DNA of 64,000 bases from a virus, in the UHGV virus genome UHGV-1440165, one strand, 5' to 3'. Positions 48,001-54,000 of the stretch are shown in pieces; within the stretch, counting starts at the first letter, position 1; every line of letters starts with the position of its first letter. The position numbers are program-made.

Positions 48001-51000
48001 GCAGATGGTATTGCTGAAGCCGGGCAACCCATTCGGCCAGAATTACTTCGCATATCCCGAGTTCTTCCCTGAGGAGCTTGGTCTGGGTAAATGGGTGGAT
48101 TACCAGGCGGCCTTTGAGAAGTCCTTCATCGACCCGATTCAGTCCATTCTTGACGTGGTCGGCTGGTCACACAAGCGCCGTGTGAACCTTCTTGCCATGA
48201 TGCAAAAGAAGAAAGGTTGATTCAATAAACCAAAGGGGGATATAATTCCCCCTGTTAACCCTTTGACAAACAGGTGATTGAAATGAAACTCAATAAGATT
48301 CTTCTGGTGTGTGCTCTGGCTTTCTCTACCACCGCATGCTCTACCCTGGCGGACGTCGTGTCAACCCCTGACCTCGACGCCCCGACGTTCACCAACGAAC
48401 AAGCCGTGGCCAAGATGGAAGACACCATCAAGGCGCATGCGGCATTGGATAACACTACTCCAGGTCCACTCCAAACCGTCTGCAACTATGACGATTCCAT
48501 CCAGGAAGACGAAACCTATCACTGCACCACCTACGTGAAACAGGCTTCGGTCGTCCTGTATGCGGACTGCACCGAAGAGCAGTGCAACGCCACGGGCTAC
48601 GACAAAGTGGAGAAAGATCAATGAACAACCTGGTCTGCATCTATGATATGAAATCAAAGGTCGGCGGCCTGTATCGCGTCCTCGTGGATGTCGACCTGAC
48701 GCTGGTTGACAGCCTCTCCCCTTGGGTGCAGTGGTTCAACGAAGAGAACTTGATAGTCAGCGACAGCAAATACTTCAAACACAAATTTGCTTCTGCTGTA
48801 GTCCCCGAAAAATATTTGCCGGAGAATGTGGAATTCCAGCCTATCACCAAAGAGTGCTACATGGCTCATGCTGGTGACCTGGCTATCCTGATGCGTGAAC
48901 GCGCTCATCCGGCTTGGCTGTACCGTGAAGTCCAATTGGGGTTGCACAAACAACGTGTTCCAAGCGGCAACGATCCTATGGACTGGTGGCGTCGCCCCGA
49001 CCTGTATGCCAAGATGAACCCGCTCCCCGGCGCTTACGAGTTCCTGGTGAATCTGAAGAAGATTCTGCTCGAAGACTTTGACAATGTTGAATTCATCGCA
49101 GTGTCTAAGTGTGAGCCGGAACATGAGCGCAGCAAGCGCCAGTTTGTCTATGACAAGTTCCCTGGCATCTTCAACGGATTTGTCAGCACCGACGAAAAGC
49201 ATCTGCTGGCAGGCGATGTCCTGATTGATGACAATCCGAAGTATGTCGAGCCGTGCGGCCTGAACAACATCTTCGTCATCTTTGTTCCTCAGGGCAATTA
49301 TGAAAAACTGGATCTTTCGAACTCGGAAGATATGCTTTATATTAAACCAGTAGAAGGCCAGAACCACTTCGACTTCCTGAACCGCAATATTGTCGAAGTG
49401 GTGAATCGCCTGATTGGTCATTATCAATACGTCCGATAGGAGGACATCGTGCAAGAACAATCCAAGTTTGGGGAAACCCCAGACAAGCGTTCCGGTGATA
49501 GCGATATGGATGGCGTGATCATCCATGTCAACAACTTCATTCGTCAGCAGGAGACTCCGACTCCTATCGCTGCTGCCAAGGCTCTCCATGAAGTACTGGT
49601 AGAGATCGGCCAGCGCTCTGAAGCGGATGAAATCTTCTATAACTTCGAAGACCAGTATAAAGTGAAGTTTGAAGAGAATGGCCGCCCACAGGTTGCTGTG
49701 TTCTGGGCACCTTGGATGGGTGGTGTGAGCTGGCGTATTGAGGATGCTTTGTAATGCTGTCGCTCTACCTGATCACAAACCTCGCCAACCATAAATTCTA
49801 TATCGGTGTCACTTCCGAACCGGATAGGCGGTTGGCTGAACACAAGTGTGGTCAGGGGAGCATTGCATTACAACGAGCGTTCAAGAAATACGGTGAAGAC
49901 CAGTTCAGGTTTGAAGTTCTGTTCCGAGGGGAAGATTCGGTTATCCTTGAGATAGAGTCTGAACTGGTCTGCCAGGAGATCCTCGATAGCGGGTGGTGTT
50001 ATAACATGGTCACCGGGGGTGGGAAGCCTCCATTGGCCACGCCAGAGTCATCCGCAAAGAGCGCCGTAACCCGCAAACGTTTGATCGCCGAAGGTAAGAT
50101 TAAACCTCCACCAAGACTCACCCCTGAAGCACAAGCCAGAAAGGGTAAGATCATAAGCAAATTGATGTCAGAAGGGAAGATCCCCAAACCACCAAGACCT
50201 TCCTCTGAATCTCAAACGCGTGGAGGGGAAACTAGGAAGAGGCTGCATGCTCTTGGTCTGATAGACATTGGTCCTGGTCGCGATGAAAAGATTTACAAAT
50301 GGCAGCACAAAGATGGTCGCATCGTTGAGTTAAGGAGGTGCGACATGGAACTTCAATATGGCCTCCCTTCCGGTAATATAACGAATCTCTTGAAAGGTAG
50401 GGCTAAAACATGTCTCGGTTGGAGAATATTAAATGGCTAAAATAATTGTAGTGAAAGGCACCTCGGCCACGGGCAAGGGTACGAGAGTGGTCCAGTTCAT
50501 CGAATGGCTGCGCACTAAGCTGGAGCCTACCGAACTCACCTACACCATTGGTGACAAGACGCGCCCGTTTGGCCTGAAGTTCGAAGAGCTGAAGTTAATC
50601 TTCGTTGGCCAGTATACCGTGTCTAACAAATCCGGTCTGGCTTCCTGGACTTCCATGGACGCCATTCATGCCGCCACAGGCTCGGGCGATATCGCCCGTG
50701 ATCTGGTTAAAGGCTGGCTGACCCAGGGTTACACTCTGGTGTGTGAGGGTGAACCCCTCATGCTGTCGGATAAATGGCGTCCTGAATGGATGTTCAAGAA
50801 CTATCCGATTGAATCACTGGCGCTGCTGTACTTTGCGTACCCCGACCGCTATCAGTATGATGCTCGCATCCGTGGTCGCTCTGGTAAGGAAGCAGGGGAC
50901 TCCGGCTGGTCACGCAACGAATCCTACTCCAAGGAGTTTGAAAAGTCGAAGGCCGAAATGCTGGCGCTGGGCTTCACCGTGGCGGTTGATGATTACAGTG

Positions 51001-54000
51001 GGCAAGACATCCTGTATAAAGCACCGGAAGTCAACACTCAGGAATTCCTGACCAGACAGCAGTCAGAGTTGGCGGTGCTGCCGTTCGACGCTCCGTTGTG
51101 GGTTGTGGGTAACGCGATTTGTCATCAGGTACGGTCTGAATTGCGCGTTGTTGACATGCACACCAAAGACTTCTATGCCTACTGTGAGACTAATCCAATG
51201 ACCCGTGAGGTCGGTGGGAAGGATCCTTTGGCGCACAGAGTGCCTGAGAAGCCTCAGAAGGCATCTAAACAGAAAACCAAGGCGAGTGCCCAGCCAGAAG
51301 CACCGAAGGCAGCGTCGCGCTCTCTCCTTGATCTAATGAAGAAGGGGTGATTATGAAACGGTTGTCTAATTATCTGTTGTTCATCGGTCTGGTTATGGTA
51401 GCCGTTTCAATGTGCGCTGCTCTAGCCTATCATTTCACTCCTCTGGACTTGACAACCTCAGAGAAGTTGAACGTGACTGTATTGTACTGCATTGGCACTG
51501 TGATGTCCATCAGCGCCGCTGGTTATAAAATATTCAAGGAACCAAAATGAAAATTGAAATCCCTCGCAACGCCGTGGCTGTTGCAATTGACTACAACGGG
51601 AATGCCCAGCACATCACCGCCGTGCGCCTGATACCCGAGCGCAACAGCATCATCCCTCAGTTTCAGCTGAATGCCAATCCGGTCTCCAAAGACTTCGGCC
51701 AGTGGAAGCAGGCAGCACCGTTCCGTAGCGAAACCAACGCCCAGCGCTTCATCTCGGATAAGACCCGGACTGCCGCTCGTTTGTGGTTCGTAACCGCCGA
51801 CCGCCGCTTCGTCGACATGTGGGAGCGCCCTATGGGATTCGTTAAGGCGGAAGACATCCAGCTGGCTCCTGAAGAGGAAGCGAAAGATGACGCATCTATC
51901 TAAAATGCCGACGGGCTACGCGCCCCCGGCTGAATGGAAGTACCCGATTGACCTGGCTGTCGACTATCGCAAGCCTGAGAATCGCATGTACCTGCTCAAG
52001 GCTTGGGTGGAGGCGCTATCCTACACAGAAGAGCACAACCAGCAGATGCGTCTGATGGACTATGCCATTGAAGTCACTGAAGGCATCAGCCTCGAACAGA
52101 AAGTCGAGCGCAAGATCTGGATGGCATTCCTGTGGGGTTGTTGCTACAACGCCATCGGTCCATGGACGATCTACAGTGAGTTCCCTGTGCCGCCACAGTC
52201 CAAAGAAGAGATGCAACGCTTCTCTGACTGGTACAACCTGAACTTTGAACGCATGCGCTTCGATACCGATTGCCGCTATCGCAAGTCGAAGATGATCCCA
52301 TGTGTTCAGTCCTACATTGACTGGCTGGCGGGGCGTACTCAATATGACGCTTTCCGTGAGATGTTGGTGTGTATTGATAAGGCGGAACAATTCACCCAGC
52401 TGTGGGACACGGCGATGTCCTGGAAATACTTCGGCCGCCTGAGCGCCTGGAACTTCCTGGAAGCCCTGAACATGGTCTTCGGCGACGAGTATACCATTGA
52501 CGTCCCTGGGTTCATGCTGCGTGACCGCGATGGCAGTGAGTCCAACCGTAACGGCGCGGCGTTCTTGTCCAACCGTGATGATTGGGTGACCAAACACGGG
52601 AAGAAAAAGATCAACGGCTGCCCTATCACTGACGAAGAGTGCGACATCCTTGAGGCCGACCTTGAGCAGGCGTTCCAGGATTGTGTTGCTGAGTTCGGGC
52701 ATCTGACGTTCATCAATCGCCTGAACTTTGAAACCTCCGGCGCATGCTGGCTGAAGAAGTTCTTCCGTGAAAAGCAAACTCGTTACATTGGGTGGGATGC
52801 CGAGCGTACCTGGGAAGAGATCGACTACATGGAACGCATCTGGTCGGAGTACTCCTGTGCAGCGCTCTGGGAAGCCCGTTCACTCTGGCTGCCAGATACC
52901 CTGTTGTGCGAAAAGGCTCCTCCAGGACACGTTCCAGGCGTCCAGAAGTGGAAGATGCCTGTGTTCTTTGAGACTGGGGTTCCTCTGCATATCTGGCATC
53001 TGCAAAAGGGCACGCGCTGGGAACCATCTGAGGTGTGTGAACGCCCGAAGGCAACCGCCAAGTCTGAAGACAAGCCGAAATCAAACAGCGTCAACCTCAT
53101 GGCACTCTTGAAACGCTGATATAAATATCCTCGCCTATAAAGTGAGGATATTATCATGTTACAAGATCTGTTGGTCTACGCACTTCCGGGTGTGGTTGTT
53201 GGATTCATCGCAGGCGCTCTGGTCTTCCGCAAACATGCGCAGGACGGTGAAGCAATCGTTCAGAAAGGCAAAGAGATTCTGAACCAGATCGAAGCCAAAC
53301 TGGAAGAACTGAAGAAGTAATCTGACTGCGATTGCGTTCTTCAATAAGGGGGAATGGGTTATTATTAGCCCGTTCCCCTTTCTTTTGCAAGGAAATACAT
53401 CATGGCTATGCAACGAATTGAAGATATGGACTCCCTGGATATCGAATCTATGGTGTCTGTAATGCTCGAAGAAGATCGCAAGACCCCTGTGGTACAGCAC
53501 CCGATGCCGGAATTGGGCGACGCTGATGGGCTGTGGAAAATGCTGAACGGCAACAAAACCTCCGGTAAGAGTGGGTTTGCCCGTGGCGAACTGAACATCA
53601 TTTGTGTCGGAGGCCGCACAAGATGATCTACCTCCTGTTTGGTGTGCCATTGATATTGGCTATCCTGTTTGTGGTCTACCACCGCAAGACCCATGAGCCG
53701 AAAGAGACTCTGATTGCGACGGCGATTGTGGTGGTGCTGTCCTGTCTGATTCAGGCCGGGGCTTATGCGGCGTTCTCCCTCGGCAGTTCGGGGGACGTCG
53801 AGATCCTGAACGGATACGTCACTGGCAAAGAGCGCAATAAGGTGAGCTGCGAGCACTCTTATCAGTGCAACTGCTATTACACCACATCGTGCTCCGGCTC
53901 CGGTAGCAGCAAGTCCTGCACCCGTACCCGCCATTGTAGCACCTGCTATGAGCATTCATACGACGTGGATTGGGATGTGCTGACGACTGTTGGCAATCTG

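What the first reader, a model, noticed from the sequence alone, without database searches (positions are those of the whole stretch)
48621..53119. Possible thymidine-replacement or hypermodification gene set, split by a GIY-YIG endonuclease
Downstream of the DNA polymerase lie a HAD-type 5'(3')-deoxyribonucleotidase-like protein (dTMP/dUMP nucleotidase family by motif I), a P-loop kinase-like protein, and a 410-aa Trp/Cys-rich unknown, with a homing endonuclease between them. In phages with 5-hydroxymethyluracil-derived DNA, a dTMP-depleting phosphatase, a DNA-acting P-loop kinase and further transferases are the expected set. The content and order are suggestive but unproven from sequence.
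Basis: inference. Interest (0 to 1): 0.5.

Follow-up and report, generated by a model that had tools for sequence, protein, structure and literature searches.

The report
Known ViI-type thymidine hypermodification genes

Summary
The window is an Agtrevirus-like Ackermannviridae phage (92% DNA identity to Shigella phage ChubbyThor). The P-loop protein (50433-51350) matches Pfam HMUD2 (5-hmdU DNA kinase 2) over its full length (E 6e-159). It is 85% identical to ViI gp243, which phosphorylates 5-hmdU in DNA in vitro. The 410-aa protein (51887-53119) is a Pfam ADDT amino acid:DNA transferase, 87% identical to ViI gp247 (serine:DNA transferase). Its catalytic Cys287 and Glu282 are intact, and its model matches the PaMx11 gp46 structure. 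The third post-replicative enzyme, the ViI gp226 PLP decarboxylase orthologue (92%), lies 5.5 kb upstream at 41826-43058. The HAD protein (48621-49439) belongs to the NT5C 5'(3')-deoxyribonucleotidase family by sequence, motifs and predicted fold. Its role as a dTMP-depleting enzyme remains an inference. The GIY-YIG gene (49754-50440) is a free-standing, sporadically present homing endonuclease. It is inserted at the junction upstream of the kinase gene, interrupts no gene, and shows co-conversion of the kinase 5' end. The dUMP hydroxymethylase should lie outside the window, as it does in ViI and Ag3. The predicted product is 5-NeOmdU. Verdict: interpretation supported, system already known, low interest.

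The parts
41826..43058 (+). PLP-dependent decarboxylase, orthologue of ViI gp226. Predicted to convert O-serinyl-thymidine in DNA to 5-NeOmdU.
   Evidence: It is 92% identical to ViI YP_004327553 over 394 aa. The Pfam PALP match has E 1.6e-7 but falls below the gathering score (31.4 vs 35 bits). Lys78 aligns with ViI Lys92, the predicted aldimine lysine (PMC8989533).
45221..48220 (+). Family-B DNA polymerase (context). Presumed to incorporate 5-hmdUTP during replication.
   Evidence: Pfam DNA_pol_B_exo1 and DNA_pol_B. Syntenic with ViI polA. Uninterrupted in this window.
48274..48624 (+). DUF7292 lipoprotein-like small protein (conserved neighbour, no known role in the pathway).
   Evidence: Pfam DUF7292 E 1.6e-54. 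The signal-peptide-like N-terminus ends in Cys.
48621..49439 (+). HAD-superfamily NT5C-like 5'(3')-deoxyribonucleotidase. Inferred dTMP phosphatase of the pre-replicative branch.
   Evidence: Pfam NT5C 34.2 bits against a cutoff of 24.8, covering residues 122-211. PDB 3bwv, mdN and cdN are the best sequence matches and the best fold matches (AF2 pLDDT 85.8; Foldseek E 3e-7, TMt 0.65-0.79). Motifs D23-x-D25, S162, K172 and D203-D204 are present, and D23, D25, K172, D203 and D204 are invariant in 24 homologues. It is 72% identical to ViI orf00239.
49449..49754 (+). DUF7254 small protein of unknown function, a conserved neighbour within enterobacterial Ackermannviridae.
   Evidence: Pfam DUF7254 E 8e-53. 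It has no cysteine, so the 'putative thioredoxin' label in some records is not supported. It is not recognisably conserved in Vibrio phage D504.
49754..50440 (+). Free-standing GIY-YIG (SegD-like) homing endonuclease inserted at the DUF7254/kinase junction. Its last 8 nt overlap the kinase start.
   Evidence: Pfam GIY-YIG E 1e-7 and phrog_19446 E 2e-103. It is absent from ViI, MK-13, SKML-39 and SW16-7 at the same junction. It is present in about 40 phage records, against about 348 that carry the transferase. Its DNA is 94% identical to the Kuttervirus allotria copy, while the flanks are 76-84% identical.
50433..51350 (+). 5-hydroxymethyl-dU DNA kinase (5-HMUDK clade 2), orthologue of ViI gp243. 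Phosphorylates the 5-hydroxymethyl group of hmU in DNA.
   Evidence: Pfam HMUD2 E 6.3e-159, positions 1-298 of 298. It is 85% identical to ViI YP_004327565. The Walker A motif is GTSATGKGT at residues 9-17. No dNMP-kinase family hit in Pfam or NCBIfam.
51347..51550 (+). 67-aa predicted membrane protein of unknown role.
   Evidence: phrog_4514 E 3e-33. Syntenic with ViI orf00244. Absent between the kinase and the transferase in Vibrio phage D504.
51547..51903 (+). 118-aa conserved protein of unknown role.
   Evidence: phrog_4163 E 5e-61. Syntenic with ViI orf00245. Absent in D504.
51887..53119 (+). Amino acid:DNA transferase (AADT, aGPT-Pplase clade 2), orthologue of ViI gp247 serine:DNA transferase.
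   Evidence: Pfam ADDT E 1.2e-60. It is 87% identical to ViI YP_004327568. E282, C287 and D213 align with PaMx11 gp46 Glu243, Cys247 and Asp175. E282 and C287 are invariant and D213 nearly invariant in 34 homologues. The only meaningful PDB match of the AF2 model (pLDDT 90.6) is 8z2n, PaMx11 gp46 (prob 1.00, TMt 0.61).

Best explanation
The interval is the main post-replicative module of the Ackermannviridae (ViI-type) thymidine hypermodification pathway, together with one likely pre-replicative enzyme and a selfish insertion.

The mechanism is known from ViI and inferred here by orthology. The phage replaces dTTP with 5-hmdUTP using a thymidylate-synthase-like dUMP hydroxymethylase, a dNMP kinase and an NTP pyrophosphatase. 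In relatives these are encoded about 37 kb past the start of rIIA, outside this window. The polymerase (45221-48220) incorporates 5-hmdU.

On the DNA polymer, the P-loop kinase (50433-51350) transfers the gamma-phosphate of ATP to the 5-hydroxymethyl group, giving 5-PmdU. The transferase (51887-53119) then attacks C6 of the base with Cys287, assisted by Glu282. It expels the phosphate to form an exocyclic methylene and adds the side-chain hydroxyl of free L-serine, giving O-serinyl-thymidine. The PLP enzyme (41826-43058) decarboxylates this to 5-(2-aminoethoxy)methyl-dU (5-NeOmdU). In ViI this base replaces about 40% of T and blocks many restriction enzymes.

The HAD/NT5C-like protein (48621-49439) most likely hydrolyses dTMP to keep thymidine nucleotides out of the pool. 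This step is an inference.

The GIY-YIG gene (49754-50440) is a free-standing homing endonuclease. It has inserted into the junction just upstream of the kinase gene and spreads horizontally, dragging the 5' (P-loop-coding) end of the kinase gene with it.
For: Identity of the phage: 282 phage records match, all Ackermannviridae-type, and the best is 92% identical.

Kinase: Pfam HMUD2 528 bits, and 85% identity to ViI gp243. gp243 gave the 418-u 5-PmdU nucleotide in vitro (PMC8989533).

Transferase: Pfam ADDT, and 87% identity to ViI gp247, which transfers serine to 5-PmdU DNA. Mutating its Cys or Glu to Ala kills activity (PMC8989533). Cys287 and Glu282 are aligned and invariant. The fold matches PaMx11 gp46, PDB 8z2n.

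Decarboxylase: 92% identity to gp226.

Gene order: pol, DUF7292, HAD, DUF7254, kinase, two small ORFs, transferase, identical to ViI. The core order pol, HAD, [HE], kinase, transferase is kept even in a Vibrio phage with 27-49% protein identity.

HAD: NT5C by profile, motifs and fold. dTMPase is a known component of hmU-phage metabolism (PMC8989533 introduction).

Endonuclease: there is a presence/absence polymorphism at one site. Against allotria the HE is 94% and the first 150 nt of the kinase 95% identical, while the flanks are 76-84%. Against Vibrio phage D504 the HE is 61% identical in protein, while the kinase is 39%, the transferase 49% and the HAD 27%. Four HE+ genomes from three genera share nearly the same first 66 nt of the kinase gene (XF4 differs at one base), and these differ from the HE- alleles at many, mostly synonymous, sites.

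Review statement: the modification genes are conserved across the family (PMC11721090).
Against: No chemistry was measured for this phage. Serine specificity and the 5-NeOmdU product rest on 87-92% identity to the ViI enzymes.

The HAD protein has never, to my knowledge, been assayed in any Ackermannviridae phage. The Pfam match covers only the C-terminal two thirds, and a roughly 90-residue cap region is family-specific, so substrate preference cannot be read from the sequence.

The hydroxymethylase, the second kinase (gp67 type) and the clade-1 aGPT-Pplase (gp160 type) are not in the window. Their presence in this genome is assumed from relatives.

The endonuclease's cleavage site was not determined.
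Confidence: 0.9

Rival explanations
1. The P-loop protein is an ordinary nucleotide (guanylate or dNMP) kinase, as RefSeq and PHROG labels say. On this reading the 410-aa protein is unrelated to DNA modification and the gene set is ordinary nucleotide metabolism.
For: phrog_4409 is labelled 'guanylate kinase', and RefSeq records of relatives use the same name.
Against: Neither Pfam nor NCBIfam gives a hit to any guanylate, thymidylate or dNMP kinase family. The only hit is HMUD2, at 528 bits. The 85%-identical ViI gp243 phosphorylates 5-hmdU within DNA (PMC8989533). The 410-aa protein has the AADT catalytic Cys and Glu and the AADT fold.
Confidence: 0.03
2. The HAD/NT5C-like protein is not a thymidine-pool-depleting enzyme. 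It could instead be a general dNMP 5'-nucleotidase for host-takeover or nucleotide turnover, as other phages encode. It could also act on a phosphorylated intermediate, for example by removing phosphate from 5-PmdU or from 3'-phosphate DNA ends.
For: phrog_2643 '5'-3' deoxyribonucleotidase' is classed as a host-takeover/auxiliary gene found in many phages. The cap region (residues ~30-118) is specific to this family, so specificity is unknown. The gene is linked to the post-replicative genes rather than to the thyA-like cluster.
Against: The closest solved relatives, mdN and cdN, are dUMP/dTMP-preferring enzymes (specificity from established knowledge). A dTMPase is a classical activity of hmU phages. 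The homologues found lie mainly on Ackermannviridae-sized contigs (about 150-160 kb) or in named phages of that family.
Confidence: 0.3
3. The module makes a different hypermodified base than 5-NeOmdU in this phage, through a different amino-acid specificity of the transferase.
For: AADT family members use different nucleophiles: glycine in M6 and PaMx11, putrescine in PhiW-14, serine in ViI. This phage belongs to a different subfamily (Aglimvirinae) than ViI.
Against: The transferase is 87% and the decarboxylase 92% identical to the ViI enzymes. A review states that the genes are conserved family-wide. No extra modification enzyme (rSAM, FAD or acetyltransferase) was found among the ORFs scanned between 34 and 64 kb of the window.
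Confidence: 0.05

Closest known systems
Salmonella phage ViI (Kuttervirus) 5-NeOmdU pathway: gp243/gp67 5-HMUDK, gp247 serine:DNA transferase, gp226 PLP decarboxylase (Lee et al. 2018, PMC5889632; Lee et al. 2021/22, PMC8989533)
   Same: The gene order downstream of the polymerase is the same. The three enzymes are 85%, 87% and 92% identical, and the catalytic residues are the same.
   Different: The window carries a 677-bp GIY-YIG homing-endonuclease insertion upstream of the kinase that ViI lacks. The HAD protein is 12 residues longer in its cap. The host genus and subfamily differ (Agtrevirus-like).
Pseudomonas phages M6 (5-NedU) and PaMx11 (5-AcNmdU): 5-HMUDK plus glycine:DNA transferase (gp51 / gp46 PUGT, PDB 8z2m/8z2n)
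   Same: The two-step logic is the same: a kinase activates 5-hmdU, then a Cys-dependent AADT substitutes the phosphate. The Cys/Glu motif (E-T-x-x-C-x-x-K) and the fold are conserved.
   Different: Only about 21% identity. The window protein is about 120 residues longer. The nucleophile is glycine rather than serine, and the downstream tailoring enzymes differ (rSAM/PLP or FAD/acetyltransferase). Their kinases are clade 1 (about 190-220 aa), not HMUD2.
hmU phages of Bacillus (SPO1, SP8, SP5C) and PhiW-14/SP10: pre-replicative dTTPase and dTMPase plus dUMP hydroxymethylase
   Same: The concept of depleting thymidine nucleotides with a phage phosphatase is the same (PMC8989533 introduction). 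The window's HAD/NT5C-like protein is the candidate for this step.
   Different: Homology of the window protein to the classical dTMPase activities was not established here.
Human/mouse mdN and cdN and the bacterial 3bwv 5'(3')-deoxyribonucleotidases (Pfam NT5C)
   Same: The HAD core fold, the DxDxT/V nucleophile motif, the motif IV DD and the cap topology class are shared. These are the best sequence and structure matches.
   Different: Identity is 16-19%. The window protein has a larger cap insertion. Its substrate is unknown.
T4 Seg-type free-standing GIY-YIG homing endonucleases (SegD-like; F-LimXI of Dickeya phage LIMEstone1, PMC3296691)
   Same: It has an N-terminal GIY-YIG domain and a C-terminal NUMOD-like region. 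Its location is intergenic, its distribution sporadic, and flanking markers are co-converted.
   Different: The target is the junction and 5' end of a DNA-hypermodification kinase gene. Cleavage must occur on hmU-containing or hypermodified DNA (inference).

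Membership tests
5-hmdU DNA kinase, clade 2 (Pfam PF18747 HMUD2) | Full-length profile match above the gathering score | tested here: met
   528.3 bits against a cutoff of 25; residues 1-304 match profile positions 1-298 of 298.
5-hmdU DNA kinase, clade 2 (Pfam PF18747 HMUD2) | P-loop (Walker A) NTP-binding motif | tested here: met
   GTSATGKGT at residues 9-17; ViI has GTSGTGKGT.
5-hmdU DNA kinase, clade 2 (Pfam PF18747 HMUD2) | Not a member of the free-nucleotide kinase families | tested here: met
   No Pfam or NCBIfam hit to guanylate, thymidylate or dNMP kinases at E<=0.1 and E<=0.01 respectively.
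5-hmdU DNA kinase, clade 2 (Pfam PF18747 HMUD2) | ATP-dependent phosphorylation of 5-hmdU within DNA | not testable with these tools
   Shown for the 85%-identical ViI gp243 (PMC8989533).
Amino acid:DNA transferase (Pfam PF18724 ADDT; aGPT-Pplase clade 2) | Profile match above the gathering score | tested here: met
   205.6 bits against a cutoff of 26.2; residues 49-296.
Amino acid:DNA transferase (Pfam PF18724 ADDT; aGPT-Pplase clade 2) | Essential catalytic Cys and neighbouring Glu | tested here: met
   C287 and E282 align with PaMx11 gp46 Cys247 and Glu243 and with the same columns in M6 gp51 and ViI gp247. They are invariant in 34 homologues.
Amino acid:DNA transferase (Pfam PF18724 ADDT; aGPT-Pplase clade 2) | All-helical, DNA-glycosylase-like fold as in PUGT (PDB 8z2n) | tested here: met
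   The AF2 model has pLDDT 90.6. Its top and only high-probability PDB hit is 8z2n (prob 1.00, TMt 0.61, E 0.038). The AGOG glycosylase appears at rank 21. Sequence-only PDB searches found nothing.
Amino acid:DNA transferase (Pfam PF18724 ADDT; aGPT-Pplase clade 2) | Serine as the nucleophile (O-linkage) | not testable with these tools
   Inferred from 87% identity to ViI gp247.
NT5C 5'(3')-deoxyribonucleotidase (Pfam PF06941; HAD superfamily) | Profile match above the gathering score | tested here: met
   34.2 bits against a cutoff of 24.8, but only residues 122-211 are covered.
NT5C 5'(3')-deoxyribonucleotidase (Pfam PF06941; HAD superfamily) | HAD motifs I-IV (DxDxT/V, S/T, K, DD) | tested here: met
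   D23-V-D25-L-T27, S162, K172 and D203-D204 are present. D23, D25, K172, D203 and D204 are invariant in 24 homologues. Motif I aligns with DMDGV of mdN and DMDEV of 3bwv.
NT5C 5'(3')-deoxyribonucleotidase (Pfam PF06941; HAD superfamily) | Fold closest to mdN and cdN | tested here: met
   The top 8 Foldseek PDB hits are mdN, cdN and 3bwv (E 3e-7 to 4e-6, TMt 0.57-0.79).
NT5C 5'(3')-deoxyribonucleotidase (Pfam PF06941; HAD superfamily) | dTMP (versus 5-hmdUMP or dUMP) phosphatase activity | not testable with these tools
   No assay exists for any member of this phage family that I could find.
Free-standing GIY-YIG homing endonuclease (Seg-like) | GIY-YIG catalytic domain | tested here: met
   Pfam GIY-YIG 32.4 bits against a cutoff of 22.6; phrog_19446 E 2e-103; TIGR01453 E 1e-12 but below its cutoff.
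Free-standing GIY-YIG homing endonuclease (Seg-like) | Presence/absence polymorphism at a fixed site among related genomes | tested here: met
   Absent in ViI, MK-13, SKML-39 and SW16-7. Present in ChubbyThor, XF4, allotria, RPN242 and Vibrio phage D504, upstream of the kinase with the same HE-kinase junction.
Free-standing GIY-YIG homing endonuclease (Seg-like) | Evidence of horizontal movement or co-conversion | tested here: met
   The HE and the first 150 nt of the kinase are 94-95% identical to allotria, against 76-84% for the flanks. The HE is 61% identical to the D504 copy, against 27-49% for its neighbours. HE+ genomes share a distinct kinase 5' allele.
Free-standing GIY-YIG homing endonuclease (Seg-like) | Site-specific cleavage of the HE-less allele | not testable with these tools
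   None obtainable here.
PLP-dependent decarboxylase of the ViI gp226 type | Fold-type II PLP enzyme profile and aldimine lysine | tested here: inconclusive
   Pfam PALP E 1.6e-7 but 31.4 bits, below the cutoff of 35. Lys78 aligns with ViI Lys92. 92% identity to the purified, active ViI gp226.

The most novel reading that the evidence does not exclude
Two points are not excluded and have not been described, as far as I could find.

(1) The homing endonuclease targets the Walker-A-coding 5' end of the hypermodification kinase gene. It must therefore cut hmU-containing or hypermodified DNA. By doing so it shuttles a resistant kinase allele (Gly12Ala plus a block of synonymous changes) between Ackermannviridae subfamilies and even Vibrio phages.

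(2) The NT5C-like HAD enzyme, conserved directly downstream of the polymerase and upstream of the kinase across very distant relatives, is a dedicated dTMPase that spares 5-hmdUMP. Alternatively it is a phosphatase acting on phosphorylated DNA intermediates. Either way it would be a missing, unassayed component of the pathway.
Probability: 0.3. Interest if true: 0.35.

Novelty: already known. Interest (0 to 1): 0.15.

Why it matters
The result confirms that a reader working from sequence alone correctly recognised a DNA-hypermodification module. It also corrects misleading database labels still attached to these genes in relatives: 'guanylate kinase', 'hypothetical protein' and 'putative thioredoxin'.

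In practice, DNA of this phage should resist many type II restriction enzymes, and probably some other nucleases. This matters for cloning, for sequencing chemistry and for phage-therapy use of Ackermannviridae.

Two modest open points remain. One is the biochemical role of the NT5C-like enzyme. The other is the target of the homing endonuclease that rides next to the kinase gene.

Tried and rejected
Sequence-only searches of the PDB with the transferase and the kinase found nothing. A 34-sequence profile of the transferase also missed PaMx11 gp46. The relation was recovered only by multiple alignment and fold search.

A first 4-sequence MAFFT alignment placed the catalytic Cys of gp46 against C341. 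Adding three intermediate homologues moved it to C287, inside the Pfam domain and invariant, so I rejected C341.

NCBIfam gave no names for any of the enzymes. The promoter and terminator scan was at shuffle level and was not used. The EcoSal review on hypermodified DNA was not held.

I looked for a thymidylate-synthase paralogue, a second kinase and a clade-1 aGPT-Pplase in the window. The ORFs scanned between 34 and 64 kb gave none. By synteny with ViI, 1-34 kb is structural, with capsid to tail spikes. ViI and Ag3 place those genes outside the window span.

The 'thioredoxin' label for DUF7254 was rejected because the protein has no cysteine. The two kinase paralogues (HMUD2 here and the ViI gp67 type) are not detectably similar by BLASTP.

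Full report
**What is there**

On the + strand, downstream of a 999-aa family-B DNA polymerase (45221-48220), one search lists a tightly packed row of genes whose boundaries mostly overlap:
- a 116-aa DUF7292 lipoprotein-like ORF (48274-48624)
- a 272-aa HAD protein (48621-49439; its ATG overlaps the preceding stop)
- a 101-aa DUF7254 ORF (49449-49754)
- a 228-aa GIY-YIG protein (49754-50440)
- a 305-aa P-loop protein (50433-51350)
- a 67-aa membrane ORF (51347-51550)
- a 118-aa ORF (51547-51903)
- a 410-aa protein (51887-53119) with 4.9% Trp and 2.9% Cys

**Which genome**

Megablast of 48200-53200 hits 282 phage records, all ViI-like Ackermannviridae. The best is Shigella phage ChubbyThor (Agtrevirus) at 92% identity. 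Gene order is identical to Salmonella phage ViI.

**The kinase**

Pfam gives one hit only: PF18747 HMUD2, '5-hmdU DNA kinase 2', E 6e-159, covering the whole profile. No guanylate, thymidylate or dNMP kinase family appears in Pfam or NCBIfam. The 'guanylate kinase' label of PHROGs and RefSeq is therefore a historical misnomer.

The protein is 85% identical to ViI YP_004327565 (gp243). Lee et al. list gp243 as a 5-hmdU DNA kinase and showed that it produces the 418-u phosphorylated nucleotide from 5-hmdU DNA (PMC8989533). The Walker A motif is GTSATGKGT.

**The 410-aa protein**

Pfam assigns PF18724 ADDT (amino acid:DNA transferase), E 1e-60, with a weak secondary hit to aGPT-Pplase3. The protein is 87% identical to ViI gp247. 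Purified gp247 transfers L-serine through its hydroxyl to 5-PmdU in DNA, and it loses activity when the conserved Cys or Glu is mutated (PMC8989533).

In a 7-sequence alignment, window E282, C287 and D213 fall in the same columns as PaMx11 gp46 Glu243, Cys247 and Asp175. Cys247 is the nucleophile in the crystal-structure paper (PMC11472151). E282, T283, C287, W288 and K290 are invariant in 34 homologues.

An AlphaFold model (pLDDT 90.6) has one meaningful PDB neighbour, gp46/PUGT 8z2n (prob 1.00, TMt 0.61). An HhH-type glycosylase, AGOG, appears further down the list.

**The missing third enzyme**

ViI gp226, the PLP-dependent decarboxylase that converts O-SerT to 5-NeOmdU, has a 92%-identical orthologue at window 41826-43058, 5.5 kb upstream. 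Lys78 matches the predicted aldimine Lys92. Three of the five ViI genes used to reconstitute 5-NeOmdU are therefore inside the window.

The others are gp67 (kinase 1) and gp160 (aGPT-Pplase 1), together with the thyA-like dUMP hydroxymethylase, dnk and an NTP pyrophosphatase. In ViI and in the Agtrevirus type phage Ag3 these lie outside the window's span. The window ends about 6.3 kb after the start of rIIA (57650). I found no thymidylate-synthase paralogue among the ORFs scanned between 34 and 64 kb.

**The HAD protein**

The Pfam NT5C match is above threshold but partial, covering residues 122-211. The best PDB sequence matches are 3bwv and mitochondrial and cytosolic 5'(3')-deoxyribonucleotidases, and motif I aligns (DVDLT with DMDGV and DMDEV).

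All four HAD motifs are present. D23, D25, K172, D203 and D204 are invariant in 24 homologues. An AlphaFold model (pLDDT 85.8) finds mdN, cdN and 3bwv as its top eight PDB neighbours.

Homologues lie mainly on Ackermannviridae-sized contigs or in named phages of that family. A 27%-identical copy occupies the same position in Vibrio phage D504.

Membership of the NT5C family is therefore well supported. The proposed function, a dTMPase that keeps T out of the pool as in the classical hmU phages, is plausible but untested. Its cap region is family-specific, so substrate choice cannot be read from the sequence.

**The endonuclease**

The protein has a GIY-YIG domain (Pfam), matches phrog_19446 'homing endonuclease' at E 2e-103, and has a weak C-terminal NUMOD-like hit.

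Relative to ViI it is a 677-bp insertion exactly at the TAATG stop/start overlap between the DUF7254 gene and the kinase gene. It interrupts no gene, and its last 8 nt overlap the kinase start.

It occurs in about 40 phage records, whereas about 348 carry the transferase. In every HE+ locus I retrieved it lies upstream of the kinase. It is absent from the closely related MK-13, SKML-39 and SW16-7.

It is more conserved than its surroundings:
- Against Kuttervirus allotria, the HE is 94% and the first 150 nt of the kinase 95% identical in DNA, while the flanking genes are 76-84%.
- Against Vibrio phage D504, the HE is 61% identical in protein, while the kinase is 39%, the transferase 49% and the HAD 27%.

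Four HE+ genomes from three genera share nearly the same first 66 nt of the kinase gene (XF4 differs at one base). This stretch differs from the HE- alleles of ViI and MK-13 at many, mostly synonymous, positions plus Gly12Ala in the P-loop. SKML-39 and SW16-7 are mosaics.

This is the expected signature of a Seg-type free-standing homing endonuclease with co-conversion. It suggests, as an inference, that the target lies in the Walker-A-coding stretch. The same element is F-LimXI of Dickeya phage LIMEstone1.

**Mechanism**

Steps shown in ViI and inferred here by orthology:
1. 5-hmdU is incorporated during replication.
2. The kinase makes 5-PmdU.
3. Cys287 of the transferase adds to C6, phosphate leaves, and the serine hydroxyl adds to the exocyclic methylene to give O-SerT.
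4. The PLP enzyme decarboxylates O-SerT to 5-NeOmdU.

In ViI and CBA120 this base replaces about 40% of T and blocks many restriction enzymes (PMC11721090). The HAD step is inferred. The roles of DUF7254, the 67-aa ORF and the 118-aa ORF are unknown, and these three are not conserved in the Vibrio relative.

**Comparison and novelty**

This is the published Ackermannviridae pathway in a new isolate-level relative. A review already states that the genes are conserved across the family.

The residual open points are the biochemical role of the NT5C-like enzyme and the target and behaviour of the endonuclease on modified DNA. Interest is low (0.15).

Noticed in passing
window 37808-39142 (+): A 444-aa protein with a YadA-like membrane-anchor domain (E 2.5e-13) and an alanine-zipper, resembling a trimeric autotransporter adhesin. 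It is encoded inside the phage tRNA cluster. Full-length copies occur in only a few Ackermannviridae (SW16-7, SP-9-14, SKML-39), with weaker relatives in Erwinia phages labelled 'adhesin'.
   Followed up: partly
window 43098-43562 (+): A 154-aa ART-PolyVal / DUF3990 (ADP-ribosyltransferase-like) protein lies immediately downstream of the PLP decarboxylase gene.
   Followed up: no
window 37498-40089 (+): A tRNA cluster (Met-cat, Arg-tct, Asn-gtt, Ser-gct). Directly after tRNA-Ser, at 40001-40089, ARAGORN calls an odd 89-nt tRNA-like gene with a 2-base 'anticodon'.
   Followed up: no
window 50433-50500 (+) and loci L002, L011-L016: HE-carrying genomes from three genera share nearly the same 5' end of the kinase gene (XF4 differs at one base). 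It differs from HE-less alleles by a block of mostly synonymous changes and by Gly12Ala in the Walker A motif. Two HE-less phages (SKML-39, SW16-7) are mosaics. This suggests that a cleavage-resistant allele travels with the endonuclease.
   Followed up: yes
window 49449-49754 (+): DUF7254 is annotated 'putative thioredoxin' in several relatives. It contains no cysteine and has only a C-terminal FWAPW[ML]GG motif, so it is not a redox thioredoxin.
   Followed up: partly
window 50433-51350 (+): The 497-position profile of phrog_15209 'endonuclease' matches the kinase at profile positions 203-497. In some phages the GIY-YIG gene and the kinase are therefore annotated as, or actually are, one fused ORF.
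   Followed up: no
window 45221-48220 (+); L001 1-3021: The DNA polymerase gene is uninterrupted in this window. In RPN242 it is split by inserted ORFs, and in Coodle and LIMEstone1 it is annotated or reported as interrupted by introns and endonucleases.
   Followed up: partly
L007 (Vibrio phage D504) 490-13176: A distant relative has a more compact arrangement: pol, HAD, small ORF, HE, kinase, then the transferase directly adjacent. The thymidylate-synthase homologue, a dNMP kinase and an NTP pyrophosphohydrolase lie only about 4 kb downstream.
   Followed up: partly
window 48621-49439 (+), residues ~49-60: The HAD protein belongs to a 272-aa subgroup with a 12-residue insertion in the cap region relative to the 258-260-aa versions in ViI and most relatives.
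   Followed up: no
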